This document shows, one piece after another, positions 5,506 through 46,907 of a stretch of DNA of 64,000 nucleotides. Positions within the stretch are counted from its first letter, which is position 1. Every line of letters begins with the position of its first letter. The notes under the pieces are model-generated. The model did no database searches. It was not told the DNA's origin and saw nothing but the letters and a program-made list of their open reading frames with translations. The stretch spans positions 2,304,001-2,368,000 of the forward strand of contig OZ252100.1 in the NCBI GenBank assembly GCA_965248435.1. Reading direction: 5' to 3'. The stretch is from Candidatus Latescibacterota bacterium (lineage in GTDB: Bacteria > Latescibacterota > UBA2968 > GCA-2709665). The position numbers and the translations under genes were made by a program.

Positions 5506-6272
5506 CTATCTACTGGTTCTCATGCACCGTTCAATTGTGTCGCGAACAAAGTCCAGCGTTTGCTCCAGATCTATTTCCTCCTCATTGCGCCACGATAGAG
5601 ACGCTTCGATCAATCTCGTTCGCTCCTTAGCAGCAGATTCCATCGCCCATCTTGCGGCAACCGGCTTTGAGACAATCTCTCCATTTTGGACTGTATAGAG
5701 TGCCCTGCACATCGTGAGAACGGCATACGCTCGATACTCACTGGTACGCAGAAAAGTGGGTTCCTTAAGCATGGGAGACCACCACTCGCCAAGCGTTCCC
5801 CTGGCAGCTCCCCGCAGTTCGTCCGGCCCCACCGGATCGATTAGCGTCTTCGGGTCTGGGCCCGCCAAGCAAACTCCCTTTTCTCGGAGAACGTGGAGGT
5901 GAATCACCCAGTCAATCCCGTGATTCCCCACGCCGAATTCCCAATCTACACCGATCGAGGGATACCGTGCCTGCGGATCATATCGCCTGAGCGCTCGCCG
6001 CGGAACATAGAAACCCTCCAGCTTCTTCGCCCATTTCAGACTGCTCGCTGAGATTCGATCGTGCATCCCCTTCAGATCGGAGATTGTTTCAGTTGAAAGT
6101 TCCTCCTGCGTGGCGACAACAAAATCGATATCACTCCGCAGGAGATCGAAATCCCGGTTGCGAGCGATCCGAATAGATACACGCCAAGAAGGCGATCCCC
6201 CAAAGTCGTCTGTACATCTGATTGAATGATTTGAAGTATCGCATTGACATCATTGTAAGGGGTAGGATTCAT
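5506..6272 (-). pseudogene. aminoglycoside adenylyltransferase-like nucleotidyltransferase (AadA/DUF4111-like), frameshifted
   Basis: The N-terminal frame reads MNPTPYNDVN...GVYLFGSLATG. An alternative frame continues DFDLLRSDIDFVVAT directly into the 5506..6066 ORF (YAVLTMCRALYT...VSKPVAARWA). One base is missing in ACC-GG-GAT near 6154. Confidence 0.75.
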
Positions 6273-6289
6273 AGCAGAAGTCTTCGGGA

Positions 6290-6880
6290 CTACGATTCCC
6301 GTGCCTTCCAGAACTCGTGTGCGGATTTCGCGAGGTCTCTGTGGTTGCGGTGCCAATTCTCTACCTTGTCATAAAACCAGTATCTAAGATCCAGCCCTTC
6401 ATTCGACAGACGCATCTCACCGCCAGTTACTCTACAATAGTAGACAACTGAGATCATCGAATGCGGGCCATTCTCCTCGCTGGGAAACCGAGCGAATACG
6501 TCCACTAGAGATACACACTCGACCTCTAACCCTGTCTCTTCCCGTGTTTCCCGCACCGCAGCTTCTGCCGGGCTTTCATTCAGCTCGACCCAACCACACG
6601 GCAGGCACCATTTCTCATCGTCTGAACGCTGCATGAGCAAGATTCGGCCCTCCTGATCGAAGATGGCTGCATCCGCGCCGACTTTGGGCGTAGCGACTCC
6701 CAACTCCATACAGAGCCGCTCACGCGCCCCTTCTGACGGTACACTGACAGACGCCCCGTAGTACTCGCTCACCAGCTCGATCAAACGCTCATATCGTTGG
6801 CGATCGTAGTCATTGCCCGCGAACTCGAGTCCGTTGCGCGCGATGCCTCTCAACTCATCAAGAAGTGGCAATATGTCCAA
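6290..6880 (-). CDS. NUDIX hydrolase with N-terminal extension (ADP-ribose pyrophosphatase-like)
   Basis: Nudix box GWVELNESPAEAAVRETREETG; N-terminal IARNGLEFAGNDYDRQRY. Confidence 0.9.
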   Translation of the reverse strand: MDILPLLDELRGIARNGLEFAGNDYDRQRYERLIELVSEYYGASVSVPSEGARERLCMELGVATPKVGADAAIFDQEGRILLMQRSDDEKWCLPCGWVELNESPAEAAVRETREETGLEVECVSLVDVFARFPSEENGPHSMISVVYYCRVTGGEMRLSNEGLDLRYWFYDKVENWHRNHRDLAKSAHEFWKARES

Positions 6881-6940
6881 TTCGCAAGATATCCTTTGCG
6901 TGCTTCTTGAAGTTCCTGCCTTACGACGATATACGTTCGC

Positions 6941-7432
6941 CTAAGCGTCAATCTTAAGCGATCGAAAAGCCCTTTTAGGTCTGTCATAGTCGAGATACGA
7001 CATCGGAGCATCGTTCAAGCGTAACGATACGTCATGTGGAGACAGGGGTCGGTTAGCCAGATAAATCTTCGCTTGCATAATGAGGTCGTTCATTGAGCCT
7101 GTAACTGCTCGATTGAGTGCTTTGGAGAACGATATCGTATCCATTGAGGGGGCGATCAGTCTCTCGAAAATAAACCTGTGTCCATCGTCTCGGATAAATT
7201 CACCCATGTAGTCTGTGATCTGATCCAAAAACTGAAAATCGGTGGTGATGTCTCTCCCATACATCACCATTGAATACAGAGAAGCACTGTTCGTAATCAG
7301 AATGTATTGGGTACGATCAGCCGTAAACAAGTGTGTGGACCAATCGGCAAACGGGTTAGAATCGGCAGGCAAAGACAGTTGAGGTGTAAAGTGAATCTTT
7401 TTGCTAATCTTGGCCGAGACTCTGATTATCAT
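6941..7432 (-). CDS. hypothetical protein (DUF6933-like)
   Basis: 163 aa ORF with DWSTHLF, ILITNSASLYS and NRAVTGSMND segments. Confidence 0.6.
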   Translation of the reverse strand: MIIRVSAKISKKIHFTPQLSLPADSNPFADWSTHLFTADRTQYILITNSASLYSMVMYGRDITTDFQFLDQITDYMGEFIRDDGHRFIFERLIAPSMDTISFSKALNRAVTGSMNDLIMQAKIYLANRPLSPHDVSLRLNDAPMSYLDYDRPKRAFRSLKIDA

Positions 7433-7729
7433 CCTTGTTCCACATTGCCGTCGTGTTCCATCAAGGGCAACTCACTATTGATTTTGCCATACCCGCTACC
7501 CGTGTTTTGCTTTCCAGGTATCTGGTTCTTACTCTGCGTCTCTGCGGTGGTGTTTGGTTTTCGAACGGCGAGCGACCGGTTTCTCCTCTGGATGCGGGGG
7601 GGGTCGCCTGCCGGTCTTCGGCGGGATTTTGTGCTCTTCCGTGATCCAGCCTTTCATTACGCGATCCCAAATCCGCCGTCCCCTGACGCTCCGCCTACCG
7701 TGCCTGGTAGTGGAAGCTATGAGATTGCC

Positions 7730-7900
7730 TACACCCAGTAGCCGTCGATAATCAGACCAGCTTAATTGTGCCCCCGGGGGCACAATTGGAAACCTGCTGT
7801 ACCGGTCGATCACCTCGTAGATAACCCGCCTTCGAAGTCCAATCCGCCCCTCGAACTCCCCGACTACGTAGGCCCCGTACTCCCGGTTTTTCCCCTCCTC
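7730..7900 (-). pseudogene. remnant of a DUF1016/YhcG N-terminal domain
   Basis: REYGAYVV...YSRFPIVPPGAQLSWSDYRRLLGV resembles the YhcG 'YG...FP...LSWSHY..LL' pattern. The reading frame then runs into intergenic repeats. Confidence 0.5.
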
Positions 7901-8099
7901 GAGAATCTCTACCGCCCGCTCCGCCAAGGCGTCTAGTCTGCGAACCGTAACCATAGTTGCCATTGAACAGCCCAAAATCAAGTACACCAACTCGAGTTTA
8001 CTGTTGGAAAACGGCTAGATATACGCAAAAAGGAGAGCCCAACCAAAATGTCGGGCTCTATCAGGTGCTCGGCAAGAGTATATCGCTTCGTGTCGATAC

Positions 8100-8477
8100 T
8101 CAGATGTCGAATTCGTACCAGGTGTTTCTAATAGATCGTGTCATATGGCGAGCATTTGCAGCATCATCTTGAATCCGTTTCAGCACAACTTTGTCCATGT
8201 CCTCTTCGATAACGTAAGACTCTAAACTCAAAACGGTCTCAAGATGCTTGATCGAATAGATCTTTGCCGCGGAATAGGCGATAACAGAATCGTGCTTAAT
8301 AAAAGGATGCTCGCCAGATTTCAAAATCGTTGTGCAGTCGGACTTACCGCGGCGTGTAGTTATAGATACCACTACAACCTCGTTATTGGCATTTGGACCT
8401 GTTAGCACAACGTGTAAGTGTCTCTTCTGCCCAGGCACAGTGGAATCCAAGAAACACAGTCCCGGCTTGATGACCAT
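8100..8477 (-). CDS. putative PemK/MazF-like toxin
   Basis: KRHLHVVLT...VVVVSITT...GEHPFIKHDSVI pattern; begins 4 nt after the Panacea gene stop. Confidence 0.55.
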   Translation of the reverse strand: MVIKPGLCFLDSTVPGQKRHLHVVLTGPNANNEVVVVSITTRRGKSDCTTILKSGEHPFIKHDSVIAYSAAKIYSIKHLETVLSLESYVIEEDMDKVVLKRIQDDAANARHMTRSIRNTWYEFDI

Positions 8478-8481
8478 GATC

Positions 8482-9033
8482 CTATCCCAAGTGTTTCTCT
8501 TCCAGTGCCCTCGTCTCCAATTCTTCTATGATTTCGCGCCTATCTTCTTCCTTTACATCCAGCGCTCTCAGAATATCATCAAGAGTTATTTCCTCTGCAC
8601 CGCCACCAGGAGGACTACGCCACTCGGAAAAGCCGTGTGTGAGCTCGCTCATCTCCCATTTCGTTGTGCTTTTATACTCATCGAAAACTTCTCTGGCCAG
8701 TTCAACTTCAGCGTCGGATAGTTGGTCGTCTGGTGTCTCTCTCAATGGCCTTAGGGCATGCTGTTCCACTTCAGAAATGTATTGCCTCCAATATTCTCCT
8801 ATCGGGGGCCACGTTTCATTCTTGATGAGATCGTAGGTATTGCTCAGCACAGGACCAAGCTTCATCGAAACGTACCTGTCAAACGTAATGGGAAACTCCC
8901 ATCGCTTGAGAGCTTCGCGGTCTATGATGTACAAAAGCTTAAGAAGCTTAATCGTACTCATCTGGCCACCAGCCATCTTGAGTAAAACGCCGGCCAACTG
9001 AGTCGTTTTTCCTTCTCTAAATTCCGGCAGCAT
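8482..9033 (-). CDS. Panacea-domain (DUF4065/SocA-like) antitoxin
   Basis: KLLKLLYIIDR, PITFDRYVSMKLGPV and SELTHGFSEW motifs. The ATG at 9033 has an AGGGGG RBS; the ORF track starts at 9063. Confidence 0.85.
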   Translation of the reverse strand: MLPEFREGKTTQLAGVLLKMAGGQMSTIKLLKLLYIIDREALKRWEFPITFDRYVSMKLGPVLSNTYDLIKNETWPPIGEYWRQYISEVEQHALRPLRETPDDQLSDAEVELAREVFDEYKSTTKWEMSELTHGFSEWRSPPGGGAEEITLDDILRALDVKEEDRREIIEELETRALEEKHLG

Positions 9034-9508
9034 GACACCCCCTGGATAGAGTCTGTCTCCCATGTTTAACGTATCGCTGATTCATCGCCCGATCTTTAGT
9101 GCACAAGGAGACAATATTCGCGCGCCACTCTATGCTTGGGTAATGCGCAAGAAAACTCAGGAATATCCAAGTTCTGGAAATATTTACCAATCTTCAAGGA
9201 AAAGGTAGTAGCTTCCGGCTGGCTTTCGAATTCACGGGGACAATTCGTACTTTGTGGGATAGCCCTAAGTAAGCCTCAGCAATCAGGTTACACATACAAG
9301 GACCATTACTACATATCATACTCTCAATTAACGCTTTCGTCAACCATTCGCACCCAACTTTACGTCTGCCAACCACTTACGTACACGGCTCGATTCTTGA
9401 TAATGTTCCCAATTTCTTGCGCTATCCATGCCAACAAGCAAACGCGCTGCCACGTCTCAACTCAAAGCTCGGCAAGTTCAATACGTTATTCGGCTAGACT
9501 CTGGATTT

Positions 9509-9940
9509 CTAGCTAAGCCGACGCCGAAGTCGATGCACGATGGGCAGAAAGATGAGGTACGAAAGTATGTGTGCGTAAACGACTGTTATAAGGATTGTAG
9601 CAAGTCCCAGTGGAGGCAACTTGGGATTTTCAAGAAACTTCGGGGTGTTCAGGAGATGGACAAGGCCGACCAGGAACCCGATCCAACCGGCGGCCAAAAC
9701 GAAGGTTCGGGCTTGTGCCCAAGAGTTGGCGGCTTCACGACTTTCTTCATCACTTAGATTTGAAGAGAAGGCGCCTTTCAACATCGTCCCGATCCCAGCA
9801 CGAGACTGCAGGAGCGCGCCAATCGTAAGGCCCGCGACGGCGATGACCGAGGGAATGTCAGTGAAATATCTGGGAGTTCCACCCATGTACGTACTAAGCA
9901 CGATGATAACGAGCGTAATGACGAGCCCCAGGATAGGCAT
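9509..9940 (-). CDS. short MotA/ExbB-like membrane protein
   Basis: Four hydrophobic segments; FTDIPSVIAVAGLT and AAGWIGFLVGLV resemble MotA TM2 and TM3; AAGGAGG RBS. Confidence 0.6.
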   Translation of the reverse strand: MPILGLVITLVIIVLSTYMGGTPRYFTDIPSVIAVAGLTIGALLQSRAGIGTMLKGAFSSNLSDEESREAANSWAQARTFVLAAGWIGFLVGLVHLLNTPKFLENPKLPPLGLATILITVVYAHILSYLIFLPIVHRLRRRLS

Positions 9941-9987
9941 TTGTTCCTCCTTTGAATTGAAAACGTGAACCTCCTACATCAAGACAT

Positions 9988-10617
9988 CTATGCGTTCTTT
10001 CGAGCGTCTTCGATAAGTTCGGGAAGCCCCCTGATCCCGAGTACTCTCCTCAATGCCCTTACTCGACGATATATTGGATCGGCTTCGGGATCGGGGCGAG
10101 GAAATCCCTGTGGATCTTCGATGTATTCAGCGAGCCCGTGGATACCGATCCTCTTTCTAAGGTCCAGGAGGCCGCGTGCGATCGGGTCGAGGCCACGCTT
10201 TTGTTCGGCATGATGGATCACCTCAGAGATGCTTCTGATCCCAATTGCCTTTCGACCTGACTCGTCGGAGCCGACAAGGATCACCGCGACCAAGGTTGCC
10301 GCGGCCAGCGCCGGACGCCAAACACGGTCGGACCAGAGGGAGCCCTTGAGAGTCGTCCAAATGTTCTGATTCGCTTCCTCACCCTTTTGCGCTTCTGCGA
10401 GGACAGATTCGACCACTGTCAGTGGTGGATCGGTTCCCGGAAGCGAACCATACGCCTTCAGGGCAGACTCGATCCCGAGCATCTCCTGTCGACAGTTAGA
10501 ACAGGTCAGCAGGTGCGCTTCCCAACGTTCGCGTTCTTCGACCGATAGCTCGTTGCTCAGCATCAGCCAGACATCTCGAGAAAATCTTTCGCAGAAAGCT
10601 TGGCCCTCTTGATTCAT
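9988..10617 (-). CDS. zinc-finger (ZAS) anti-sigma factor
   Basis: HLLTCSNC (HxxxCxxC), single TM segment, overlaps the sigma stop (ATGA). Confidence 0.85.
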   Translation of the reverse strand: MNQEGQAFCERFSRDVWLMLSNELSVEERERWEAHLLTCSNCRQEMLGIESALKAYGSLPGTDPPLTVVESVLAEAQKGEEANQNIWTTLKGSLWSDRVWRPALAAATLVAVILVGSDESGRKAIGIRSISEVIHHAEQKRGLDPIARGLLDLRKRIGIHGLAEYIEDPQGFPRPDPEADPIYRRVRALRRVLGIRGLPELIEDARKNA

Positions 10618-12578: not shown

Positions 12579-12675
12579 CGGTACCCGGTACCCGTGTTTT
12601 GATTTCACGGGGCGACCCAGCGTCGCCCCCAAACCGTAAGATCCCTGTAACCTATCTACCTATCCCGGTACTCGG
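12579..12675 (+). repeat. ~97 bp REP-containing dispersed repeat, copy 1
   Basis: Near-identical to the reverse complement of 46720-46817; core hairpin GGGGCGAC-N-GTCGCCCC. Confidence 0.85.
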
Positions 12676-24510: not shown

Positions 24511-24670
24511 GCCGATCCTCTTCCTCGTTTATTGTCTTTGTTCTTCTCTCATGAACTACGATCTCTCGCGGTGCTCGTATTTGATCTCCCGGTAACCAGC
24601 TTTTCACTGGTTTGGGCGAACACAAGGTTCGGACGATACCCGGACTTTACGGTTCCCGGTACCCGACTTC

Positions 24671-37787: not shown

Positions 37788-38783
37788 CTAATAGGCCCAC
37801 CTCAGAAGGGCGCTTCCCCAGGTGAATCCCGCCCCCGCACTCGCCACAAGAACCTGATCCCCCCTGCTTACGCGCCCCCCCTCCACAGCATCGGAAAGCG
37901 CGATCGGAATCGTCCCGCACGTCGTATTCGCGAACCGATCGATGTCGATCAACACCTTGTCCTCCGGCAGGTTCAATTTCCGAATACTCGCATCTATGAT
38001 GCGTTTGTTGGCCTGATGCGGGAGGAACAACGCAATGTCTTCACCCGTAAGCCCGTTTCGTTCAAGGAGGTCTGCGGATACCGAGGCCATGCTATTCGTA
38101 GCAAACTTGAACACTTCGCGCCCATCCTGACGCACGTAATGCATCCTTTTGTCTACCGTTTCGTGGCTGGCCGGATGAAGGCTGCCTCCTCCTGGCTGAG
38201 AGAGGTACTTCCCACCCGAGCCGTCGACCTTGAAGATGAAGTCTTGTATACCCTCGCCGTCCTCTCCGGGTTCCAGGAGTACGGCACCTGCGCCATCCCC
38301 GAAAAGCACGCACGTGGACCTGTCTGTGTAGTCGACAATGCTGCTCATCTTATCGGCGCCAATCACGACCACTCGCTTGTGTGCACCCGATTCGACAAAC
38401 TGACAGCCCACGATGAGCGCGTAGAGAAACCCGCTGCAGGCGGCGGACAGGTCGAACCCCCATGCATTCTTCGCCCCGACGTTTTCCTGAACAAGGCACG
38501 CCGTTGCGGGGAACATCATGTCGGGCGTTACGGTAGCGACGATGATCAGGTCAACATCTTTTGCATCCAAACCCTTCTGCTCGAGCAGGTTTTCCAGGGC
38601 CCGCGTCGCAAGGAAGGAGGTTCCCAAACCGTCATCAAGGATCCGTCGCTCCCGAATACCGGTTCGAGACTGGATCCATTCGTCCGTCGTATCTACCATC
38701 TTTTCCAGATCGGCATTCGTCAATTTGCGGTCTGGGAGGTAGCGGGAAACGCCGGTTATTGAAGCGCGGAAACGCACACCCAT
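37788..38783 (-). CDS. fabH: beta-ketoacyl-ACP synthase III
   Basis: AACSGF, LFGDGAGA, PHQANKRI and GAGFTWG motifs. Confidence 0.96.
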   Translation of the reverse strand: MGVRFRASITGVSRYLPDRKLTNADLEKMVDTTDEWIQSRTGIRERRILDDGLGTSFLATRALENLLEQKGLDAKDVDLIIVATVTPDMMFPATACLVQENVGAKNAWGFDLSAACSGFLYALIVGCQFVESGAHKRVVVIGADKMSSIVDYTDRSTCVLFGDGAGAVLLEPGEDGEGIQDFIFKVDGSGGKYLSQPGGGSLHPASHETVDKRMHYVRQDGREVFKFATNSMASVSADLLERNGLTGEDIALFLPHQANKRIIDASIRKLNLPEDKVLIDIDRFANTTCGTIPIALSDAVEGGRVSRGDQVLVASAGAGFTWGSALLRWAY

Positions 38784-38802
38784 CTCGTCAGGACCTCATC
38801 GC

Positions 38803-38985
38803 TTAAACACCTTCGCCCTCGATGACTTCCTGACCTTTGTAATGACCGCAGCTGGGACAAACCCGGTGGGGCTGCCGCTGCTGACCACAGTTCGGACAAT
38901 CTGAGAACGTCGGCACCTGAAGCTTCCAGTGCGACCGTCGCTTGCCTGTCCTCGAATTGGAGCTTCTGCGCTTTGGATGTGCCAT
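38803..38985 (-). CDS. rpmF: 50S ribosomal protein L32
   Basis: MAHPKRR...CPNCG...HRVCPSCGHY. Confidence 0.96.
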   Translation of the reverse strand: MAHPKRRSSNSRTGKRRSHWKLQVPTFSDCPNCGQQRQPHRVCPSCGHYKGQEVIEGEGV

Positions 38986-40352: not shown

Positions 40353-41966
40353 ATGAGCTCGATCTCGCCTGCAATTAACGGAAAAGTCTTCTTCGTGACC
40401 GGGGCCACCGGTTTTGTGGCAAAGGGGCTGGTCGAAAAGCTCCTTCGCGACGTCCCCGGCGTGAGGCGACTCTACCTCCTGATTCGATCGGGAAAGCACG
40501 GTTCTGCGGAGCAGCGACTGGACCGTGAGGTGATCAACTCCAACGTATTTTCCGAGCTGAGGAAACGGCTGGGCCCGAAATTTGAAGAGACGGTTCGACC
40601 GAAACTGGTCGCCGTCGCGGGCGATCTATCCAAGGACCGGATGGGGCTGACCCCAGACGACTACTCCAAACTGCTGCAAGAAGTAGACATCGTCATCAAT
40701 TGCGCAGCGACGGTTGTCTTCGATGAGCGCCTGGACCACGCACTCGAGCTGAATACCCTTGGGCCCCGCCGCATCCTGGAATTCACGAAATCCTGCCGGG
40801 ATGCGATTCTCGTTCACGTATCCACGGCCTATGTCAATAGTCAGCAGACAGGTCACATCCCGGAGAGACTGCTCCCTCCCGGTCAGAAGATCCAAAGAAT
40901 CTTGGGGGACGGGCATTCTCCGGACTTCGATTTGGAGACAGAGATCGAATCGATCCGGCAATTCCGCGATGAGGTCATGTCAGACTCAGAACAACCCGAT
41001 CTCGAAGGCCAATTTCTTCGAACCCTCCAGCAACAGGACAGAGGCAAACGGGTGACCAAGTATCGACGAACGCATCAACTCGATGCCTTGCGCAAACGCT
41101 GGATAACACAAAGACTCGTGAAAGAAGGAATGTCGCGCGCTCGTAGGCTGGGATGGAATGATACCTATACCTTTACGAAGTCCATGGGCGAACAGATCAT
41201 CGCGAAATACCGCGGCAGTCTCCCGACCGCCATCGTGAGGCCTTCGATCATCGAGAGCAGCCTCTGCGACCCGGAGCCTGGGTGGTTGGATGGGTTGAAG
41301 GTTGCCGATCCCCTCTTCGTGCATTACGGTAAGGGCCGACTGGACCACTTTCCCGCGAATCCGGACATCGTGCTCGACGTCGTACCCGTCGACATCGTGA
41401 CAAACGCAATCATCGCTATCCTGCCTCAGGTTAGAAAGCAAAAGGACATGCAGGTCTATCAGGTCGCGACGAGTTCCGTCAATCCGTTGAAGCTTCGAGA
41501 CCTCGCAGACTGGGTCTACGAATACTTTAGGAAGAGCCCGCTGCAGGACAGGGACGGGAACCCAATTCAGGTGCACAAGTGGCGGTTTCCGAGCCACAAG
41601 GAATTTCGGCGGCAGGTTCGCCTGAAATACCAGGTCCCCCTCACCACGATGCTGTGGCTGACGAACCACGTGCCGATCTTCCCGTCCAGCATGAAACGAA
41701 AGGTTTCAATTTTTGAGGCCACGTTCCAACGTCTCCTTTCACTCATCGAAATCTATGGTCCCTACACCACGCTCGATTGCCGATTCGAAACGGAAAACAT
41801 CCGGCGCCTCTACCAAAAGCTGGACCCGGAAGATCGAAAGGTCTTCAACTTCGACGTCTCGAGCATCCGATGGCGAGAGTATGTGCAGGATATACACCTC
41901 CCGGGACTGAAGCGCCACATACTGAAGGACGGTTCGGAGCAGGAACATGTGGAGCATAGTGCATAA
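40353..41966 (+). CDS. alcohol-forming fatty acyl-CoA/ACP reductase (FAR; NAD-binding-4 plus sterile domain)
   Basis: TGATGFVAK, NCAATVVFDE, HVSTAYVN, YTFTK, IVRPSIIES..PEPGW, DVVPVD and a C-terminal FNFDVSSIRW...HLPGL. Confidence 0.93.
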   Translation: MSSISPAINGKVFFVTGATGFVAKGLVEKLLRDVPGVRRLYLLIRSGKHGSAEQRLDREVINSNVFSELRKRLGPKFEETVRPKLVAVAGDLSKDRMGLTPDDYSKLLQEVDIVINCAATVVFDERLDHALELNTLGPRRILEFTKSCRDAILVHVSTAYVNSQQTGHIPERLLPPGQKIQRILGDGHSPDFDLETEIESIRQFRDEVMSDSEQPDLEGQFLRTLQQQDRGKRVTKYRRTHQLDALRKRWITQRLVKEGMSRARRLGWNDTYTFTKSMGEQIIAKYRGSLPTAIVRPSIIESSLCDPEPGWLDGLKVADPLFVHYGKGRLDHFPANPDIVLDVVPVDIVTNAIIAILPQVRKQKDMQVYQVATSSVNPLKLRDLADWVYEYFRKSPLQDRDGNPIQVHKWRFPSHKEFRRQVRLKYQVPLTTMLWLTNHVPIFPSSMKRKVSIFEATFQRLLSLIEIYGPYTTLDCRFETENIRRLYQKLDPEDRKVFNFDVSSIRWREYVQDIHLPGLKRHILKDGSEQEHVEHSA

Positions 41967-43936
41967 TGGACGCACGCTATACCGGTTCAACGCCCATTCT
42001 CGAGCTTCACGTCAACCAGCTGCTCGAGAATCCAGAGCGCATGCTGGATCTCTATGACCGGTCCGCCCGGGAACTGATCGAGGTCGGACGTCTGGAAGGG
42101 TATTTCGAAGGTTGGGATCTTGGCCGCCTGAAATGGCCGTCCAGTCGGCGGGATACCGGGCCTGCAGACATCTCCGAACTTCAGAAGCGTGCAGAGCTTG
42201 TAAATAAAATCTTTCTCGGCGTACCGAAGCTCAGAGGTGAGCGGCTTTCGGATGCCTACTCGCCCTTCAATCGTCTAACCCCTGCTTATCACGAGGGGAA
42301 CCGTCTCTACCTCCAGCTCAAACACGACTTCCTTGCTCGAGGCGCCGGCAACGAGCAGAATTATCTCCAGCTCTACCAGGCGGTCTATGTGGAGGCCCTG
42401 GCTAAGGGAGGCGACCTGTTTTCTCCAGACGCGGGTGAGGCGGCGCTGTCCGAGGCCAGGATCTTTCGCGCACCCCTTTCCCACGCGCAGCCTGTAGCAG
42501 AGGACCTGCCAACCGCAGTGTTGGACGAAGATCCGAGGTGGGAAGAGACCTATTCCTGTAAACTGGATGGCCATCCGATCGAGGCCTCGTTGAGGGATCT
42601 GCTGAAGAAGGTGGCGGAAAGGGCCCTCGACTACGTCAACGCCGGCGGGTTGCTCGCCACCCACTTCAACACCTACAACAACCTCGGCTGGTTTGGCAGT
42701 TCAATCTGGAAAGTGATCGTGGATGTGGACCTTTCTCGTCATCAGATTCAGATCCAACGACCCGGTTCGAATCCCCACGACCTCGCCCATATCCGGAACG
42801 ACATTCATCTCGGTATCGCGATGCTCGTGGAGTTCCTGCAGGCTCATCGCGAAGACCCGGCCAGGCTGAAACCTGAAAAATACTGGTATGGCCAGGACTA
42901 CAGCTATCTCACTCGAGATATGCTGGATCTAGCCCAGCGGCTGATTCATGGGATGAACGAGCAAATCGATGGCAAGGAAAAACTCCAACTTCCACCTCTC
43001 CTGGCGGGCAGTCCCAGCGGGCGGTTTCTCGAATATCCTCACGTAGGCAGGCAGGCTCAGCCTTCACCCTGGAATCGAACCCTCAAGCTCTTGCGATGGG
43101 CGGGGGTCTCCTGGAAAGTGGGCAGACGTCGTGCGAGGCTGGCCAAATCGCAATTGAGCGAGGACCTGCGTTGGCCGCGTGCCTGGCAGGAATGGGTCGC
43201 CTGGTCCGATGCCACGCTTCGCATTTTCGGCATCCAGGTCAAAGTGAGTCTGGATCCGAGCTTTCATTCTGTCGCCAAAGACCTCGACCTGACCCGCGGA
43301 AAGCAGAAGGTGCTCTTTCTACCCACGCACCAATCTCTCCTCGACCACCCCATTATGTATCGGGTCCTGACCTCCCCGGAGCTGATGTCGGCGATGGGTT
43401 GGCGAGAGCCGGTGTCCTGCGCCTTCCTCGCGCGAACGGGGCTCTCCAAGGCTGGAGTGCGGATCGGCAGGTTCGATATGACCATGTTCGGCGTCTCGTC
43501 GGAGAAGTTTGACCGCATGTTCGAGGAACTGGACGGATACGTGACGCGCGAGCGTCTGGAGGGAACCGGTCCCACGGCCCTCAGGCTGGTGGAGGCCTTG
43601 AAGAAACGCCCTGGCGTCATCTATCCCATGGCGACCGTCGGCGCTTTCGATGTCCAGCTCTTTCCGCTACAGCACGCGATGTTCGCCCAACTGCCGCAGG
43701 ATGTAATCATCATTCCCATCGCCTTTCGGGGTGCACACGCGCTCTGGCCCAAGTGTCCTAAGGGAAACCTCCAGATCAATCCGGGCCTCGTCGAAGCCGT
43801 GGTTGCACCCCCGATGCTCGGAGAAACCACGCTGCTGCCCAAGCGCAGATCGCTGCGCATTCAGCTTGAGGCGGCGACACTCTTTCAGGCAGTGCACATT
43901 ACTTCCTTGTTGAATCCTGAACCATCTGCAGACTAG
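41966..43936 (+). CDS. glycerolipid acyltransferase-family protein with a large N-terminal domain of unknown function (candidate DHAP acyltransferase)
   Basis: C-terminal LFLPTHQSLLDH (HxxxxD block I), FLAR, IYPMAT and VIIIPIAF. Translationally coupled to FAR (TAATG). Confidence 0.7.
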   Translation: MDARYTGSTPILELHVNQLLENPERMLDLYDRSARELIEVGRLEGYFEGWDLGRLKWPSSRRDTGPADISELQKRAELVNKIFLGVPKLRGERLSDAYSPFNRLTPAYHEGNRLYLQLKHDFLARGAGNEQNYLQLYQAVYVEALAKGGDLFSPDAGEAALSEARIFRAPLSHAQPVAEDLPTAVLDEDPRWEETYSCKLDGHPIEASLRDLLKKVAERALDYVNAGGLLATHFNTYNNLGWFGSSIWKVIVDVDLSRHQIQIQRPGSNPHDLAHIRNDIHLGIAMLVEFLQAHREDPARLKPEKYWYGQDYSYLTRDMLDLAQRLIHGMNEQIDGKEKLQLPPLLAGSPSGRFLEYPHVGRQAQPSPWNRTLKLLRWAGVSWKVGRRRARLAKSQLSEDLRWPRAWQEWVAWSDATLRIFGIQVKVSLDPSFHSVAKDLDLTRGKQKVLFLPTHQSLLDHPIMYRVLTSPELMSAMGWREPVSCAFLARTGLSKAGVRIGRFDMTMFGVSSEKFDRMFEELDGYVTRERLEGTGPTALRLVEALKKRPGVIYPMATVGAFDVQLFPLQHAMFAQLPQDVIIIPIAFRGAHALWPKCPKGNLQINPGLVEAVVAPPMLGETTLLPKRRSLRIQLEAATLFQAVHITSLLNPEPSAD

Positions 43937-43948
43937 ATAGGATCTCCT

Positions 43949-45799
43949 GTGTCTACGGCTGATGTCATAACGCTTGCAGGCATCCTGGTCCTGGCCGCTG
44001 CCTTTTTCATCCTCGTAAAGAGGCGGGGTCGCGCTCAGCCTCTGGATGTGTCCTACGACCCGTCCGAAGCGCAGAGGTATCATCACAGATGGGGTTACGT
44101 GGACACCCGATTCGAGTTTGACGGACCCAGGAGCGTAAGGGTCACCGGAAGCAGGTATCCCCTCTCGGGTTTTAGCATGCCTTCCTTTGTCCCCTTCATA
44201 GAGGAAGTCCTGGACGTTCAGATTCGACCAGAAGATCTGAACGTGGAAAATAGACCTCACGAGATTCGGGCCCCGGCTCTGAACGAGGCCTTTATGGCCT
44301 CGATCGAGACCGAATTCAAGGAGGATCAGTACTCCATCGATCCCGGAGACAGGTTAGTCCACAGTCACGGACAACTGAGCGTAGACGAGGTCTATCAGAT
44401 CCTGTATGGAACATCCGTGAAGAGGGTGGTCGACCTGGTCCTCTATCCCGAAAAGGAAGAGGATATAGGCACCATCATCCAGTTGGCAGACGAACAGAGT
44501 GTATGTCTGATGCCTTACGGTGGCGGTACGAACGTAAGCGGCGCGCTGGCTTGCCCTTCTGCAGAAGATCGAATGATCGTATCGGTGGATATGAGAAGGA
44601 TGAGCCGAATCTTGTGGGTCGATGAAGAAAACTTTCAGGCCTGCGTCGAGGCGGGAATCACCGGCAAACAGCTTGAAAAGGAGTTGGACGCGAAGGGATA
44701 TACCTCGGGGCACGATCCGGACAGCATCGAGTTTTCAACGCTGGGTGGATGGATCTCAACGAACGCCAGTGGGATGAAGAAGAACAGATACGGCAACATC
44801 GAAGACATCGTGCTCGAAGCCACGCTGATCACACCCACCGGAAACGTTGAAACCCTGGCCGTGACGCCAAGAAGTTCTATCGGCTCACAGCCCAGGTCTC
44901 TTTTGTTCGGAAGCGAGGGGAATTTCGGAATCATCACCAAGGCCGTCATCAAGATCCACGCGAGACCCAGGGTGCGAAAATACGGCTCACTGGTGTTCCC
45001 GACATTCGAGAGAGGCGTCAGCTTCTTGAAGGAATTGCGCACACAGGGGATATTGCCCGCGAGCATTCGACTCGTCAGCAATAACGAATTCAGATTCGGA
45101 CAGGCGCTCAAACCCGAACCCACCTTTATGAAGGGGATCGTAAACGGACTTCAGCGGTTCTTTCTTCTTCGAATCCTGGGGTTTGATTCGAAAAAGATGG
45201 TTGCATGTACCATCTTGATGGAAGGATCAAGAGCAGAAGTGTCTCAACAGGAACGATCGATTTTCAGCATCGCCAAGAAGCATAAGGGTAAAAGCGGTGG
45301 TGCAGCCAACGGAAAGAGGGGCTACACGCTCACCTTTGGTATCGCCTACATCAGAGACTTCTGTAATGAGTGCCACGTCCTGGGTGAAACGTTTGAGACC
45401 TCCGTCCCGTGGAACAGAATCCACCACGTCTGCCAGGGCGTGGAAAGGGGATTGGTCGAAGAAGCCAAGAAAAGGAACGTTCCGGGGAAACCCTATCTGT
45501 CCTACCGTGTGACTCAGACCTATCACACCGGCGTATGCATCTACTTCACGATGGGTTTCTATGGAAAAGGGATGGAGAAGCCGACGGACGTTTTTCACGA
45601 GATAGAAGGTCGTTTGCGGCAGATCATTCTGGATAACGGGGGTTCTTTGTCTCACCACCACGGCGTCGGCAAGGTTCGACAGCCGTTTTTGTCTCAGGTC
45701 CACTCCGAAAACAGCATCAATGTCCTGCGCCAATCCAAAAAGGCGATGGATCCGAACAACACGTTCGGTATCAGAAACGGCGTGTTTGGTGACACCTGA
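43949..45799 (+). CDS. alkyl-dihydroxyacetonephosphate synthase (AGPS)-like FAD oxidoreductase
   Basis: RLVHSHGQ, PYGGGTNVS, GHDPDSIEFSTLGGW, ASGMKKNRYGNIED, GSEGNFGIIT, GYTLTFGIAYIRD, ETFETSVPW, RVTQTY..GVCIYF and GGSLSHHHGVGK; N-terminal TM helix. Confidence 0.9.
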   Translation: MSTADVITLAGILVLAAAFFILVKRRGRAQPLDVSYDPSEAQRYHHRWGYVDTRFEFDGPRSVRVTGSRYPLSGFSMPSFVPFIEEVLDVQIRPEDLNVENRPHEIRAPALNEAFMASIETEFKEDQYSIDPGDRLVHSHGQLSVDEVYQILYGTSVKRVVDLVLYPEKEEDIGTIIQLADEQSVCLMPYGGGTNVSGALACPSAEDRMIVSVDMRRMSRILWVDEENFQACVEAGITGKQLEKELDAKGYTSGHDPDSIEFSTLGGWISTNASGMKKNRYGNIEDIVLEATLITPTGNVETLAVTPRSSIGSQPRSLLFGSEGNFGIITKAVIKIHARPRVRKYGSLVFPTFERGVSFLKELRTQGILPASIRLVSNNEFRFGQALKPEPTFMKGIVNGLQRFFLLRILGFDSKKMVACTILMEGSRAEVSQQERSIFSIAKKHKGKSGGAANGKRGYTLTFGIAYIRDFCNECHVLGETFETSVPWNRIHHVCQGVERGLVEEAKKRNVPGKPYLSYRVTQTYHTGVCIYFTMGFYGKGMEKPTDVFHEIEGRLRQIILDNGGSLSHHHGVGKVRQPFLSQVHSENSINVLRQSKKAMDPNNTFGIRNGVFGDT

Positions 45800-45901
45800 T
45801 CACAGACGACGGACCGCTGACCCCGAAATGAATAGCCTTTTGATTCTAGCGGTCAGCGGTCTGATTTCCGAGATACGAGATGCGATCTGGACGCTTGACT
45901 C

Positions 45902-46717
45902 TTGACTGATTCCTTCCGCGAAAAGACCGTCATCATTACGGGCGCGTCTTCCGGCCTCGGCGCAACGCTGGCCGAGGAGTTTTCTAAACGTGGCGCTCGC
46001 CTCGTCCTGTTCGCGCGAACCGAACAGAAGCTCAAAGAAACCGCGGATCTTTGCCAGAATTCCGGATCCTCACCCCTGATTGTCACAGGAGATGTGACCG
46101 ACCCCCGGGACTGTGAGAAGCTGATAGAAAAGGCTGTCGCAAACTATGGCGATGTGGATTATTTTGTTGCGAATGCAGGCGTGAGTATGTGGGCCAAGTT
46201 CGAGGACGTGAAGGACATCTCGATATTCGGGAGGATTATGGAAACGAACTACCTGGGTACGGTCCACAGCGTTTACTACGCGCTTCCGTATCTGAAAAAA
46301 AGCAAAGGAATGATTGTCGCCATCTCCTCGATCCAGGGAAAGATCGGGGTCCCGCTTCACACCGGTTATGTCGCATCGAAGCACGCCTTGCAGGGTTTTC
46401 TGGCGTCACTTCGCGCGGAAATAAGCGGGAGCGGCGTCCACGTCCTCACTGTGCTGCCCCATTGGATGAGAGGTACTCATCTCAGAAAAAATGCGCTCGG
46501 CAAAGACGGATTCCCGATCGGTGAATCGAAGAGACACAGCAAAGAGTCGATCTCTCTTCAAGAATGCGCGGCCGCCATCATCAAGGCGATGAATAAGAGA
46601 AAGACGGAGCTGGTCATCCCACCCAAACTCAAACTCCTCCCCTGGTTGAATCTGATCAACCCAAAGATCGTGAACTTTCTCGTAAAGGGAGAGATGGAGC
46701 GCCAGGAGGAGTCCTGA
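45902..46717 (+). CDS. SDR oxidoreductase, DHRS7B-like (candidate acyl/alkyl-DHAP reductase)
   Basis: TGASSGLG, NAGVS, METNYLG, IVAISSIQGK and YVASKHA motifs. Confidence 0.85.
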   Translation: MTDSFREKTVIITGASSGLGATLAEEFSKRGARLVLFARTEQKLKETADLCQNSGSSPLIVTGDVTDPRDCEKLIEKAVANYGDVDYFVANAGVSMWAKFEDVKDISIFGRIMETNYLGTVHSVYYALPYLKKSKGMIVAISSIQGKIGVPLHTGYVASKHALQGFLASLRAEISGSGVHVLTVLPHWMRGTHLRKNALGKDGFPIGESKRHSKESISLQECAAAIIKAMNKRKTELVIPPKLKLLPWLNLINPKIVNFLVKGEMERQEES

Positions 46718-46719
46718 AA

Positions 46720-46817
46720 CCGTGTACCGGGATAGGTAGATAGGTTACAGAGACCTGACGGTTTGGGGGCGACGCCTGCGTCGCCCCGAGAAATCAAAAC
46801 ACGGGTACCGGGTACCG
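46720..46817 (-). repeat. ~97 bp REP-containing dispersed repeat, copy 2
   Basis: Its reverse complement matches 12579-12675 with a few substitutions. Confidence 0.85.
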
Positions 46818-46907
46818 CAAAATCGTAGATTGTCGTTCCTCTATTCTGGTTTTCTCTGCACCCTCCGCGTCTCTGCGCTGAAGTTTCCTTCCTTATGCTC
46901 CCACCAT

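What the first reader, a model, noticed from the sequence alone, without database searches (positions are those of the whole stretch)
43949..45799. AGPS with animal-like active-site motifs and a membrane anchor in place of a peroxisomal targeting region
Seen: ASGMKKNRYGNIED, NGKRGYTLTFGIAYIRD, RVTQTYHTGVCIYF and GGSLSHHHGVGK. From memory these closely follow metazoan AGPS segments, including the HHH motif and the catalytic Tyr in 'CIYF'. The N-terminus is a hydrophobic helix followed by KRRGR. Inference: a membrane-tethered true AGPS that is either sister to the eukaryotic enzymes or was transferred between domains. By eye the AGPS and SDR genes look less GC-rich than the flanking housekeeping genes.
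Basis: partly seen in the sequence, partly recalled or inferred. Interest (0 to 1): 0.75.

Follow-up and report, generated by a model that had tools for sequence, protein, structure and literature searches.

The report
Membrane-anchored bacterial ether-lipid synthase AGPS
This gene encodes a genuine bacterial counterpart of the animal enzyme that makes the ether bond of ether lipids, fastened to the cell membrane by a short helix and inherited within its own bacterial lineage, not recently borrowed from a eukaryote.

Summary
ORF 43949-45799 (+, 616 aa) carries all four quoted motifs. It matches guinea-pig AGPS at 527 bits, and its model superposes at TM 0.94. Arg419, Arg515, Thr568, Tyr578 and His615-617 are all conserved. 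A hydrophobic N-terminal helix (residues 3-27) is followed by KRRGR.

The origin idea does not hold for this gene. It is the third gene of a FAR / orphan acyltransferase / AGPS / SDR operon. That operon sits at the same chromosomal place in 13 of 14 sampled genomes of its order, whose record titles say Candidatus Latescibacterota. GC3 is ordinary (36th percentile). In a 62-row tree the protein lies inside an all-bacterial clade (100/100). Animal-type eukaryotic AGPS lies outside a 39-row, mostly bacterial clade (100/99).

The membrane helix is specific to this clade: 98 of 99 close homologues with a full N-terminus have it. None of 52 other bacterial loci and none of 14 eukaryotic N-termini do.

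No PEDS1/CarF was found, so alkyl ether lipids are the likely product, not plasmalogens.

The closest known system is the Myxococcus xanthus MXAN_1676-1674 operon. A 2026 paper's tables and a 2026 preprint already list Latescibacterota AGPS hits. This scan met the same operon before on other DNA (e1-3114939, e1-6408531, e1-6408540, e1-777527).

The parts
40353..41966 (+). Fatty acyl-CoA/ACP reductase (FAR), 537 aa. First gene of the operon; supplies the fatty alcohol.
   Evidence: Pfam PF07993 NAD_binding_4 (2.2e-71) and PF03015 Sterile (7.7e-17). Conserved upstream of the acyltransferase gene in 13 of 14 relatives.
41966..43936 (+). Orphan acyltransferase (ORF656), 656 aa: an N-terminal helical domain of about 420 aa plus a C-terminal PlsC/GPAT-fold domain. 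Inferred DHAP acyltransferase.
   Evidence: No Pfam or PDB sequence hit, even with a profile. AF2 model pLDDT 84.6. Residues 367-654 match T. maritima PlsC 5kym at Z 14.6, rmsd 3.1, 220 aligned, and human GPAT1 8e50 at Z 8.6. Foldseek gives 5kym at E 1.4e-4. H455 is present in 33 of 33 family members and position 460 is D in 25 and E in 8. R490, T557 and P584 are invariant. The family was found in 115 of 151 sampled genomes of the phylum.
43949..45799 (+). AGPS (alkyl-DHAP synthase) orthologue, 616 aa: the finding itself.
   Evidence: 527 bits to guinea-pig AGPS. Model TM 0.94 and rmsd 1.6 A against 4bby at 42% identity.
43955..44029 (+). N-terminal hydrophobic helix (residues 3-27): inferred membrane anchor.
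   Evidence: Kyte-Doolittle 19-residue mean 2.61 at residues 5-23. AF2 helix 3-27. Hydrophobicity is conserved in 98 of 99 close homologues with a full N-terminus, while the sequence is not.
44018..44032 (+). Basic cluster KRRGR (residues 24-28) directly after the helix.
   Evidence: Read from the translation. Relatives carry RRR, KRRR or RRRV at the same place. By the positive-inside rule (established knowledge) this puts the catalytic domain in the cytoplasm.
44432..44857 (+). FAD-binding domain (residues 162-303).
   Evidence: Pfam PF01565, 1e-38.
44963..45766 (+). FAD-linked oxidase C-terminal (cap) domain (residues 339-606). It holds R374, R469, T522, Y532 and H569-571.
   Evidence: Pfam PF02913, 5.9e-34. 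Residues aligned to guinea-pig R419, R515, T568, Y578 and H615-617. R374, R469 and Y532 are invariant and H569-571 are at 90% or more in 39 diverse family members.
45902..46717 (+). Classical SDR, 271 aa: inferred acyl/alkyl-DHAP reductase.
   Evidence: Pfam PF00106 (1.2e-47). NCBIfam PRK06181 at 297.9 bits, above its cut-off of 215. Nearest solved structures are 11-beta-HSD1 at about 99 bits. A homologue lies in 16 of 80 AGPS loci from many phyla, directly behind AGPS in most of them.
37788..38985 (-). rpmF (38803-38985) directly followed by fabH (37788-38783), with no plsX between them. Context for the operon's role.

Best explanation
The gene encodes a working alkyl-dihydroxyacetone-phosphate synthase (AGPS, EC 2.5.1.26). 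It is the ether-bond step of a four-gene DHAP-route operon that is ancestral to a class of Latescibacterota-labelled marine bacteria.

Proposed route:
1. The FAR reduces an activated fatty acid to a fatty alcohol.
2. The orphan acyltransferase ORF656 makes 1-acyl-DHAP.
3. AGPS, through its flavin and the Tyr532 / His569-571 / Arg374 site, swaps the acyl chain for the alcohol to give 1-O-alkyl-DHAP.
4. The SDR reduces the keto group to give 1-O-alkyl-glycerol-3-phosphate.
5. A PlsC-type enzyme then acylates that product.

Animals use a peroxisomal targeting presequence. This clade's AGPS instead has a single N-terminal helix followed by a basic cluster. That should pin the enzyme to the inner face of the cytoplasmic membrane, where its lipid substrates are. 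With no PEDS1/CarF found, the end products should be alkyl (plasmanyl) lipids, not plasmalogens.

Shown: homology, fold, conserved catalytic residues, operon conservation, vertical inheritance, and conservation of the hydrophobic N-terminus.

Inferred: enzyme activity, substrates of ORF656 and the SDR, membrane topology, and the product.
For: AGPS identity:
- 527 bits to guinea-pig AGPS, against 82.5 bits for the best non-AGPS flavoenzyme.
- Model pLDDT 91.1.
- TM 0.94 and rmsd 1.6 A to 4bby, against TM 0.84 at 20% identity for D-lactate dehydrogenase.
- All five checked active-site positions conserved.

Pathway context:
- FAR, ORF656, AGPS and SDR lie in this order between ndk/yceD/fabH and bioD/bioA in 13 of 14 sampled relatives.
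- An SDR homologue lies near AGPS in 16 of 80 loci from many phyla.
- Diatom-type proteins fuse FAR, acyltransferase and AGPS in the same order, and a gammaproteobacterial MAG fuses acyltransferase to AGPS.
- ORF656 has a PlsC/GPAT fold with an HX4D/E motif.
- The M. xanthus operon of AGPS, a FAR-acyltransferase fusion and an NAD-dependent reductase contributes to alkyl ether lipids when tested by deletion (PMC9131029, passages read).

Anchor:
-.

No plasmalogen step:
- PF10520 was found in 0 of 2 genomes of this genus, but in 4 of 4 AGPS-bearing Myxococcia and Leptospirales genomes used as positive controls.

Vertical descent:
-.
Against: - No enzyme assay, lipid analysis or expression data exist for this organism.
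- ORF656 shows no sequence-level link to GNPAT or to the acyltransferase domains of the fusion proteins. hhalign probabilities were 0.4% and 15.9%. Its DHAP specificity therefore rests on fold, motif and neighbourhood only.
- The SDR is a generic classical SDR by sequence.
- Three of 14 relatives in the order, and 20 of 119 close homologues, lack the N-terminal helix. The anchor is therefore dispensable, or some starts are miscalled.
- In M. xanthus, loss of the AGPS gene gave only a minor drop in ether lipids.
- The sponge preprint found no short-chain plasmalogens assignable to bacteria.
Confidence: 0.75

Rival explanations
1. The gene was acquired recently from a eukaryote (for example an animal host), or is the direct sister of the eukaryotic enzymes.
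For: About 42% identity and near-identical active-site motifs to animal AGPS. Total GC is lower than the flanks.
Against: - It lies inside an all-bacterial 22-row clade (100/100). The nearest animal-type eukaryotes are outside a 39-row clade (100/99).
- AGPS was found at E 1e-160 or better in 39 of 41 genomes of the order.
- The operon has the same flanks in 13 of 14 genomes.
- GC3 is at the 36th percentile and codon-usage distance at the 69th percentile.
- Other bacterial phyla reach 50-68% identity, which is higher than animals do.
Confidence: 0.03
2. It is a generic FAD-linked oxidase or dehydrogenase (D-lactate or glycolate type) without AGPS chemistry.
For: The only NCBIfam hits are glcD-type models. 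Pfam sees only the two general FAD-oxidase domains.
Against: - The glcD hit scores 160 bits against a cut-off of 568.
- AGPS scores 527 bits against 82.5 bits or less for any other flavoenzyme.
- The AGPS-specific N-terminal region (query 46-160) aligns.
- Tyr578, His615-617 and Arg419 are conserved.
- Its operon partners are lipid enzymes.
Confidence: 0.05
3. The hydrophobic N-terminus is not a stable anchor. It is either a cleaved export signal or an artefact of a miscalled start codon.
For: Twenty of 119 close homologues and 3 of 14 relatives in the order lack it. The start is a GTG.
Against: - No basic residue precedes the hydrophobic stretch.
- The stretch is 19 or more residues long and is followed, not preceded, by the basic cluster. 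That is the reverse of a Sec signal (read from the sequence, using established signal-peptide rules).
- An AGGA lies 6 nt upstream, and the upstream gene's stop is only 12 nt away.
- The next in-frame Met is far downstream, inside the conserved region.
- Hydrophobicity is conserved in 98 of 99 homologues while the sequence drifts.
- A flavoenzyme that uses cytoplasmic acyl-DHAP is unlikely to be exported (inference).
Confidence: 0.1
4. The operon serves ether-lipid salvage or wax/alcohol metabolism, not de novo membrane ether-lipid synthesis.
For: FAR plus an acyltransferase could make wax esters. Marine dissolved lipids contain alkylglycerols (general knowledge).
Against: - ORF656 has the glycerolipid (PlsC/GPAT) fold, not a wax-synthase fold.
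- AGPS and the SDR have no role in wax synthesis.
- The operon sits beside the fatty-acid synthesis cluster.
- PlsX, PlsY and the GpsA C-domain were not found in this genome. This points to a core biosynthetic role.
Confidence: 0.05
5. The locus is an assembly chimera.
For: None found. Public contigs do not bridge two of the junctions (ORF656/AGPS and SDR/bioD).
Against: - The window lies 2.3 Mb inside a 5.66-Mb contig.
- The same gene order occurs in 13 of 14 relatives, many of them single-contig genomes.
- Contigs from other studies' seawater metagenomes bridge fabH..FAR, FAR..ORF656 and AGPS..SDR.
Confidence: 0.01

Closest known systems
[quoted passage not shown] Source: PMC9131029, passages read; PMC13012113, sections 11 and 12 and passages read.
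   Same: A bacterial operon that joins an AGPS orthologue (about 42% identical to human AGPS) with FAR, acyltransferase and reductase functions. It is the DHAP-type route to alkyl ether lipids. Deletion of the AGPS gene lowers ether lipids.
   Different: In the window, FAR and the acyltransferase are separate genes placed before AGPS. The acyltransferase belongs to a family that Pfam does not recognise, with a helical N-domain of about 420 aa. The reductase is a classical SDR, not an extended one. The AGPS carries an N-terminal membrane helix that none of the sampled Myxococcota loci with a readable N-terminus show. No CarF/PEDS1 was found. The Myxococcia sequences fall in a different bacterial subgroup of the tree.
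Mammalian peroxisomal AGPS (guinea-pig structures 4bby, 4bca, 4bc7)
   Same: Same three-part fold (TM 0.94, rmsd 1.6 A) at 42% identity. The same Arg, Tyr and His-His-His active-site residues.
   Different: The bacterium has no peroxisome. The first 45 residues form a hydrophobic helix plus a basic cluster, where the animal enzyme has a presequence. None of 14 eukaryotic N-termini has a TM-like stretch. That the animal presequence carries a PTS2 signal is recalled; it comes from no call.
Diatom-type multidomain proteins ACBP-(DegT)-FAR-acyltransferase-AGPS (for example a Thalassiosira profunda protein of 2461 aa)
   Same: FAR, acyltransferase and AGPS follow in the same order as the three genes here. 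Their AGPS domains lie within the 39-row, mostly bacterial clade.
   Different: One polypeptide instead of an operon. Their acyltransferase domain is a Pfam-recognisable PF01553 domain. They group with the other bacterial subgroup, not with the window's.
agps hits in Poribacteria, Acidobacteriota and Latescibacterota MAGs of sponges (bioRxiv 10.64898/2026.06.23.733905, section 13 and passages read), and the Latescibacterota rows in the FAR and AGPS supplementary tables of PMC13012113 (supplement search)
   Same: The same gene family in the same phylum, already listed as a candidate ether-lipid gene.
   Different: The preprint treats agps as a standalone hit; the terms GNPAT and fatty acyl-CoA reductase do not occur in it. 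In the PNAS supplements, 'Latescibacter' occurs only in the FAR table (39 times) and the AGPS table (32 times) among the 12 of 15 files searched. Neither main text mentions the operon, the orphan acyltransferase or the membrane helix.

Membership tests
AGPS / alkyl-DHAP synthase (EC 2.5.1.26) | Two-domain PCMH-type FAD-binding fold with a cap domain | tested here: met
   PF01565 (1e-38) and PF02913 (5.9e-34). Model TM 0.94 to 4bby.
AGPS / alkyl-DHAP synthase (EC 2.5.1.26) | AGPS-specific N-terminal domain preceding the FAD domain | tested here: met
   Query residues 46-160 align to guinea-pig residues 94-205 within a single 565-residue alignment. D-lactate and glycolate enzymes align only from about residue 160 onward.
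AGPS / alkyl-DHAP synthase (EC 2.5.1.26) | Catalytic Tyr (guinea-pig Tyr578) | tested here: met
   Y532 in GVCIYF aligns to Tyr578. It is invariant in 39 family members. The 4bca entry title names the Tyr578Phe mutant.
AGPS / alkyl-DHAP synthase (EC 2.5.1.26) | His-His-His loop (His615-617) and Arg419 | tested here: met
   H569-571 and R374 align to these residues. R374 is invariant and the HHH residues are at 90% or more.
AGPS / alkyl-DHAP synthase (EC 2.5.1.26) | Closer to characterised AGPS than to any other flavoenzyme family | tested here: met
   527 bits (guinea pig) and 323 bits (Dictyostelium), against 82.5 bits or less for other families.
AGPS / alkyl-DHAP synthase (EC 2.5.1.26) | Exchange of the acyl group of acyl-DHAP for a fatty alcohol | not testable with these tools
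   Needs an enzyme assay.
GNPAT / DHAP acyltransferase (for the neighbouring ORF656) | Sequence membership in the GPAT/GNPAT family (PF01553 or a GNPAT-like profile) | tested here: not met
   No Pfam hit at E up to 10. No PDB hit with a sequence or a profile. hhalign to the acyltransferase parts of two fusion proteins gave probabilities of 0.4% and 15.9%. Two of 120 listed family members carry a precomputed PF01553 hit.
GNPAT / DHAP acyltransferase (for the neighbouring ORF656) | Glycerolipid acyltransferase fold with an HX4D catalytic motif | tested here: met
   PlsC 5kym at Z 14.6 and GPAT1 8e50 at Z 8.6. H455 in 33 of 33 members, and D or E at 460 in 33 of 33.
Aerobic plasmalogen pathway (FAR, GNPAT, AGPS, PEDS1) | Presence of the vinyl-ether desaturase PEDS1/CarF (PF10520) | tested here: not met
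   No match in G000 (97.5% complete) or in G001 of the same genus. Matches of 167-217 bits in 4 of 4 control genomes that also hold AGPS.

The most novel reading that the evidence does not exclude
In this whole class of marine Latescibacterota the DHAP route is not a side path. It is the only entry into glycerolipid synthesis. The orphan acyltransferase and the SDR replace PlsX/PlsY/PlsB and GpsA. The membrane-anchored AGPS then diverts a large share of the flux into 1-O-alkyl lipids. These abundant uncultured bacteria would then be a main source of the non-isoprenoid alkyl glycerol ethers seen in sea water and sponges. A complete animal-style ether-lipid module would also exist in bacteria outside the Myxococcota, which bears on where eukaryotes got theirs.
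Probability: 0.3. Interest if true: 0.65.

Novelty: new variant of a known kind. Interest (0 to 1): 0.4.

Why it matters
Ether lipids were long treated as a hallmark of archaea and of eukaryotic peroxisomes. The only genetically tested bacterial AGPS is that of Myxococcus.

This locus shows a complete DHAP-type module fixed in a widespread marine lineage and inherited vertically. It uses a membrane helix to solve a problem that eukaryotes solve with an organelle: bringing AGPS to its lipid substrates.

It offers three things:
- A testable candidate source for bacterial alkyl glycerol ethers in the sea.
- A clean system for asking whether membrane tethering matters for AGPS.
- Together with the orphan acyltransferase, a new enzyme family for the first step of the route.

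It also cautions against reading high similarity to animal proteins as evidence of transfer.

Tried and rejected
- A single-protein scan of genome contigs found 22 pattern matches but no relative. I repeated it with alignment A2, which gave 593 confirmed stretches.
- ORF656 gave no Pfam hit at E up to 10. It gave no PDB hit by sequence and only chance-level hits with a profile. hhalign to P0146 and P0122 was not significant. Its N-terminal helical domain has no convincing fold match; helical-bundle rows at Z 8 or below are in the range the tool calls common.
- A PTS2-like pattern written from memory matched 0 of 14 eukaryotic N-termini. The pattern may be wrong, so I draw no conclusion about targeting signals.
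- No RNA holder was listed for the operon.
- Public contigs did not bridge the ORF656/AGPS junction (they stop at 43932-43936) or the SDR/bioD spacer (they stop at 46718-46822).
- Promoter-like and terminator-like sites were not above the shuffles: 5 against 3.1 +/- 2.0, and 5 against 6.6 +/- 2.3.
- Of 30 representatives looked up for names, only 13 carried one.
- For the careful tree I dropped 29 of the 91 rows: long-branch unnamed representatives and near-duplicates.
- The rooting of the AGPS tree and the direction of any old transfer between domains could not be settled. The basal forks have supports of only 80-94.
- I did not run complex prediction. The two whole proteins exceed its size limit, and I do not claim that they bind.
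Full report
**What is there.** One search lists an ORF at 43949-45799 on the + strand, 616 aa, starting with GTG. Its translation contains the four quoted segments and begins MSTADVITLAGILVLAAAFFILVKRRGR. The upstream gene ends with TAG at 43934-43936, and an AGGA lies 6 nt before the GTG. Pfam finds the two general domains of FAD-linked oxidases: PF01565 at residues 162-303 and PF02913 at residues 339-606. NCBIfam has no model that the protein passes. The best is glcD at 160 bits against a cut-off of 568.

**Is it a true AGPS?**
- Against all PDB chains, the best match is guinea-pig AGPS 4bby (E 4.8e-157, 527 bits, query 46-610 on chain 94-656). Dictyostelium AGPS 2uuu follows at 323 bits. 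The best non-AGPS flavoenzyme scores 82.5 bits and aligns only from about residue 160.
- Counting along the printed alignment, guinea-pig Arg419, Arg515, Thr568, Tyr578 and His615-617 are matched by R374, R469, T522, Y532 and H569-571.
- The chain that differs from 4bby by Phe at the Tyr position is 4bca, whose entry title reads 'Tyr578Phe mutant'. The title of 4bc7 reads 'Arg419His mutant'.
- In an alignment of 39 diverse family members, R374, R469 and Y532 are invariant and H569-571 are kept in 90% or more.
- An AlphaFold2 model (mean pLDDT 91.1) superposes on 4bby with TM 0.94, rmsd 1.6 A and 42% identity. D-lactate dehydrogenases reach TM 0.84 at 20% identity.

**Neighbourhood.** The gene is third in a tight four-gene unit:
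- A fatty acyl reductase at 40353-41966 (PF07993 and PF03015).
- A 656-aa protein at 41966-43936, called ORF656 here.
- AGPS.
- A classical SDR at 45902-46717 (PRK06181 at 297.9 bits, above its cut-off of 215).

ORF656 has no Pfam hit at E up to 10 and no PDB hit by sequence or profile. Its model (pLDDT 84.6) has a C-terminal domain, residues 367-654, that matches Thermotoga PlsC at Z 14.6 (rmsd 3.1, 220 aligned) and human GPAT1 at Z 8.6. Foldseek gives E 1.4e-4. In 33 family members His455 is invariant and position 460 is Asp (25) or Glu (8). That is the HX4D motif of glycerolipid acyltransferases. Arg490, Thr557 and Pro584 are also invariant. The four genes thus cover the four steps of the DHAP route to ether lipids as described for mammals in PMC9131029 (passage read). 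ORF656's DHAP specificity and the SDR's substrate are inferred from context.

**Upstream cluster.** Upstream on the other strand lie ndk, yceD, rpmF, fabH, fabD, fabG, acpP and fabF. rpmF ends 20 nt before fabH, with no plsX between them.

**Is it foreign or chimeric?**
- The window lies 2.3 Mb inside a 5.66-Mb contig of a genome rated 97.5% complete.
- A search of 41 genomes of the same order, including the window's own, found AGPS at E 1e-160 or better in 39 (60-79% identity, one of them in two pieces at contig ends). The other two are fragmented assemblies, one of which holds a partial match.
- In 14 relatives for which I fetched 13-17 kb, 13 have FAR, ORF656, AGPS and SDR in this order. 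The ndk/yceD/fabH and bioD/bioA flanks recur wherever the fetched stretch reaches them.
- The exception, G022, has AGPS alone within about 8 kb. Its ORF656 lies about 110 kb away.
- ORF656 was found in 115 of 151 sampled genomes of the phylum. It is in 112 of 114 in four families of the window's class (18/18, 30/30, 62/64, 2/2) and in 2 of 36 elsewhere.
- Record titles of two loci whose contig lengths equal those of two of these relatives read 'Candidatus Latescibacterota'.
- Composition: the genome is 56.6% GC, AGPS 53.2% and the SDR 53.6%. GC3 is 0.654 and 0.668, the 36th and 44th percentiles of 2991 long ORFs. The codon-usage distance of AGPS is at the 69th percentile of genes of like length.
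- Contigs of seawater metagenomes from other studies carry close variants of the stretch. They bridge fabH to the start of FAR, FAR to ORF656, and AGPS to the SDR. They do not bridge the ORF656/AGPS junction or the SDR/bioD spacer.
- Nothing points to a chimera or a recent transfer.

**Where it sits in the family.**
- The family is large. 15351 representatives at 50% identity match at E 0.001 or better, and 944 at 1e-30 or better.
- Loci at 43-68% identity to the window protein come from Latescibacterota, Chloroflexota, Cyanobacteriota, Actinomycetota, Myxococcota, Spirochaetota, Gemmatimonadota, Acidobacteriota, Binatota, Deinococcota, Pseudomonadota, Bacteroidota, Fidelibacterota and Vulcanimicrobiota.
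- A second, more distant branch at about 30% identity holds other bacteria and a diplonemid.
- I obtained named eukaryotic sequences from the cluster look-ups and a search started from a heterolobosean protein.
- A 91-row quick tree and a 62-row careful tree give the same picture. The careful tree used LG+C20+F+G4, ultrafast bootstrap and SH-aLRT. I dropped 29 long-branch or redundant rows for it.
- The window protein lies in a 9-row clade (98/96), inside an 11-row clade (100/99), inside a 22-row all-bacterial clade (100/100).
- Those sit inside a 39-row clade (100/99) that holds all type-I bacteria plus diatom-type fusion proteins.
- Animals, Heterolobosea, an oomycete and alveolates lie outside it, joined by weakly supported forks (80-94).
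- So this gene is neither the sister of the eukaryotic enzymes nor a fresh import.
- How the bacterial and animal-type groups relate at the root is unresolved. [quoted passage not shown]

**The N-terminal helix.**
- Residues 5-23 have the only high hydropathy of the protein (mean 2.61). The model has a helix at residues 3-27.
- Among the 120 closest protein clusters (62-94% identity), 119 show the conserved Trp-Gly-Tyr site. Of these, 99 have 30 or more residues before it, and 98 of the 99 have a TM-like stretch there. The residues themselves differ. The other 20 have short N-termini without it.
- Within the order, 11 of 14 sampled genomes have the helix with an in-frame start before it.
- Among the 80 loci from other species, 59 show the Trp-Gly-Tyr site and 4 of those have the helix. 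All 4 are in the window's own 11-row-type clade, and one of them is a Wenzhouxiangella MAG. None of the 52 loci outside that clade has it. Nor do any of 14 eukaryotic N-termini.
- The stretch is preceded by no basic residue and followed by KRRGR, or by RRR or KRRR in relatives. That is the layout of an N-out, C-in signal anchor; a cleaved Sec signal has the opposite layout. This step is inference from established rules.
That animal AGPS carries a PTS2 there is recalled; my remembered pattern found nothing.

**What the product should be.** PF10520 (PEDS1/CarF) was not found in this genome or in the other genome of its genus. It scored 167-217 bits in 4 of 4 AGPS-bearing Myxococcia and Leptospirales genomes searched as positive controls. 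The route should therefore stop at alkyl (plasmanyl) lipids.

**A lead from earlier notes of this scan, tested in this genome only.**
- PF02660 (PlsY) and PF07479 (GpsA C-domain) gave no match.
- The only PF02504 (PlsX) match is below its cut-off and belongs to a phosphate acetyltransferase (PF01515 at 358 bits).
- PF01553 finds three proteins: a 202-aa PlsC-like one, a 445-aa one, and a 900-aa protein with AMP-binding, carrier and acyltransferase domains. None looks like PlsB.
- This fits the idea that ORF656 plus the SDR feed all glycerolipid synthesis. I tested one genome only, and the 445-aa protein could be a regular acyltransferase.

**Comparison with what is known.**
- The nearest described system is the M. 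xanthus operon MXAN_1676 (AGPS), MXAN_1675 (FAR1-like plus GNPAT-like fusion) and MXAN_1674 (NAD-dependent reductase family). Deleting its AGPS gene gives a minor loss of ether lipids (PMC9131029, passages read).
- A June 2026 preprint reports agps hits in Poribacteria, Acidobacteriota and Latescibacterota MAGs as standalone genes. The terms GNPAT and fatty acyl-CoA reductase do not occur in it (section 13 and passages read).
- In the supplements of PMC13012113, 'Latescibacter' occurs only in the FAR table (39 times) and the AGPS table (32 times) among the 12 of 15 files searched. The first two hits in each table are GTDB taxonomy entries of class UBA2968. On one contig the AGPS and FAR entries are genes 108 and 110. 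Three files were not searched.
- Other literature searches found no paper describing the four-gene operon, the orphan acyltransferase or the membrane helix. One search, which combined AGPS, FAR, gene cluster and bacteria, returned nothing. bioRxiv supplements are closed and may hold more.
- This scan noted the same operon before in other Latescibacterota genomes, and AGPS-reductase pairs elsewhere.

**Verdict.** The inter-domain origin idea fails for this gene. The system is a new variant of a known kind, of moderate interest. The open points worth an experiment are the anchor, the orphan acyltransferase, and whether this is the lineage's main lipid route.

Noticed in passing
window 46746-46822; also 12580-12592 and 24651-24663: A short palindromic intergenic element, GGTACC(C/G)GGTACC, usually followed or preceded by GTGTTTTG. 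It occurs at 3 places in the window (0.02 expected by chance) and 77 times in contig C1. Contigs of other metagenomes pile up and break there. It looks like a REP-type repeat.
   Followed up: partly
window 37788-38985 (- strand): rpmF is followed directly by fabH (20-nt gap), with no plsX gene between them. Family searches of the whole genome found no PlsX, PlsY or GpsA C-domain.
   Followed up: partly
G000:C1:2776424-2779210 (L112): A 900-aa protein with AMP-binding, phosphopantetheine-carrier and PF01553 acyltransferase domains. It is ElbD-like or Aas-like but has no reductase domain. It may be a second lipid-tailoring route in the same genome.
   Followed up: no
proteins P0133, P0141, P0159, P0181: Proteins of 2100-2700 aa, one from the diatom Thalassiosira profunda, fuse ACBP, sometimes a DegT-type aminotransferase, FAR, acyltransferase and AGPS in the same order as the bacterial operon. 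In the trees their AGPS parts sit among bacteria, next to the Myxococcota/Spirochaetota subgroup (98/96 for the joint clade).
   Followed up: partly
proteins P0122 and P0041: A gammaproteobacterial MAG encodes an acyltransferase-AGPS fusion (810 aa). One metagenomic protein at 67% identity to the window's AGPS is fused to a class I/II aminotransferase (1060 aa).
   Followed up: no
protein P0487: The AGPS assigned to an amphipod (Hirondellea gigas) branches outside the other six animals. It may be a divergent copy or come from an associated organism.
   Followed up: no
window 6000-10000: GC falls to 0.47-0.52 against about 0.57-0.61 around it. It may be an island of different origin.
   Followed up: no
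window 42969-42970 and 45786-45908: Close marine variants carry 9-nt and 3-nt insertions at adjacent positions (42969, 42970) in ORF656. They also have a different 75-nt spacer in place of 121 nt between AGPS and the SDR. The coding frame is kept.
   Followed up: no
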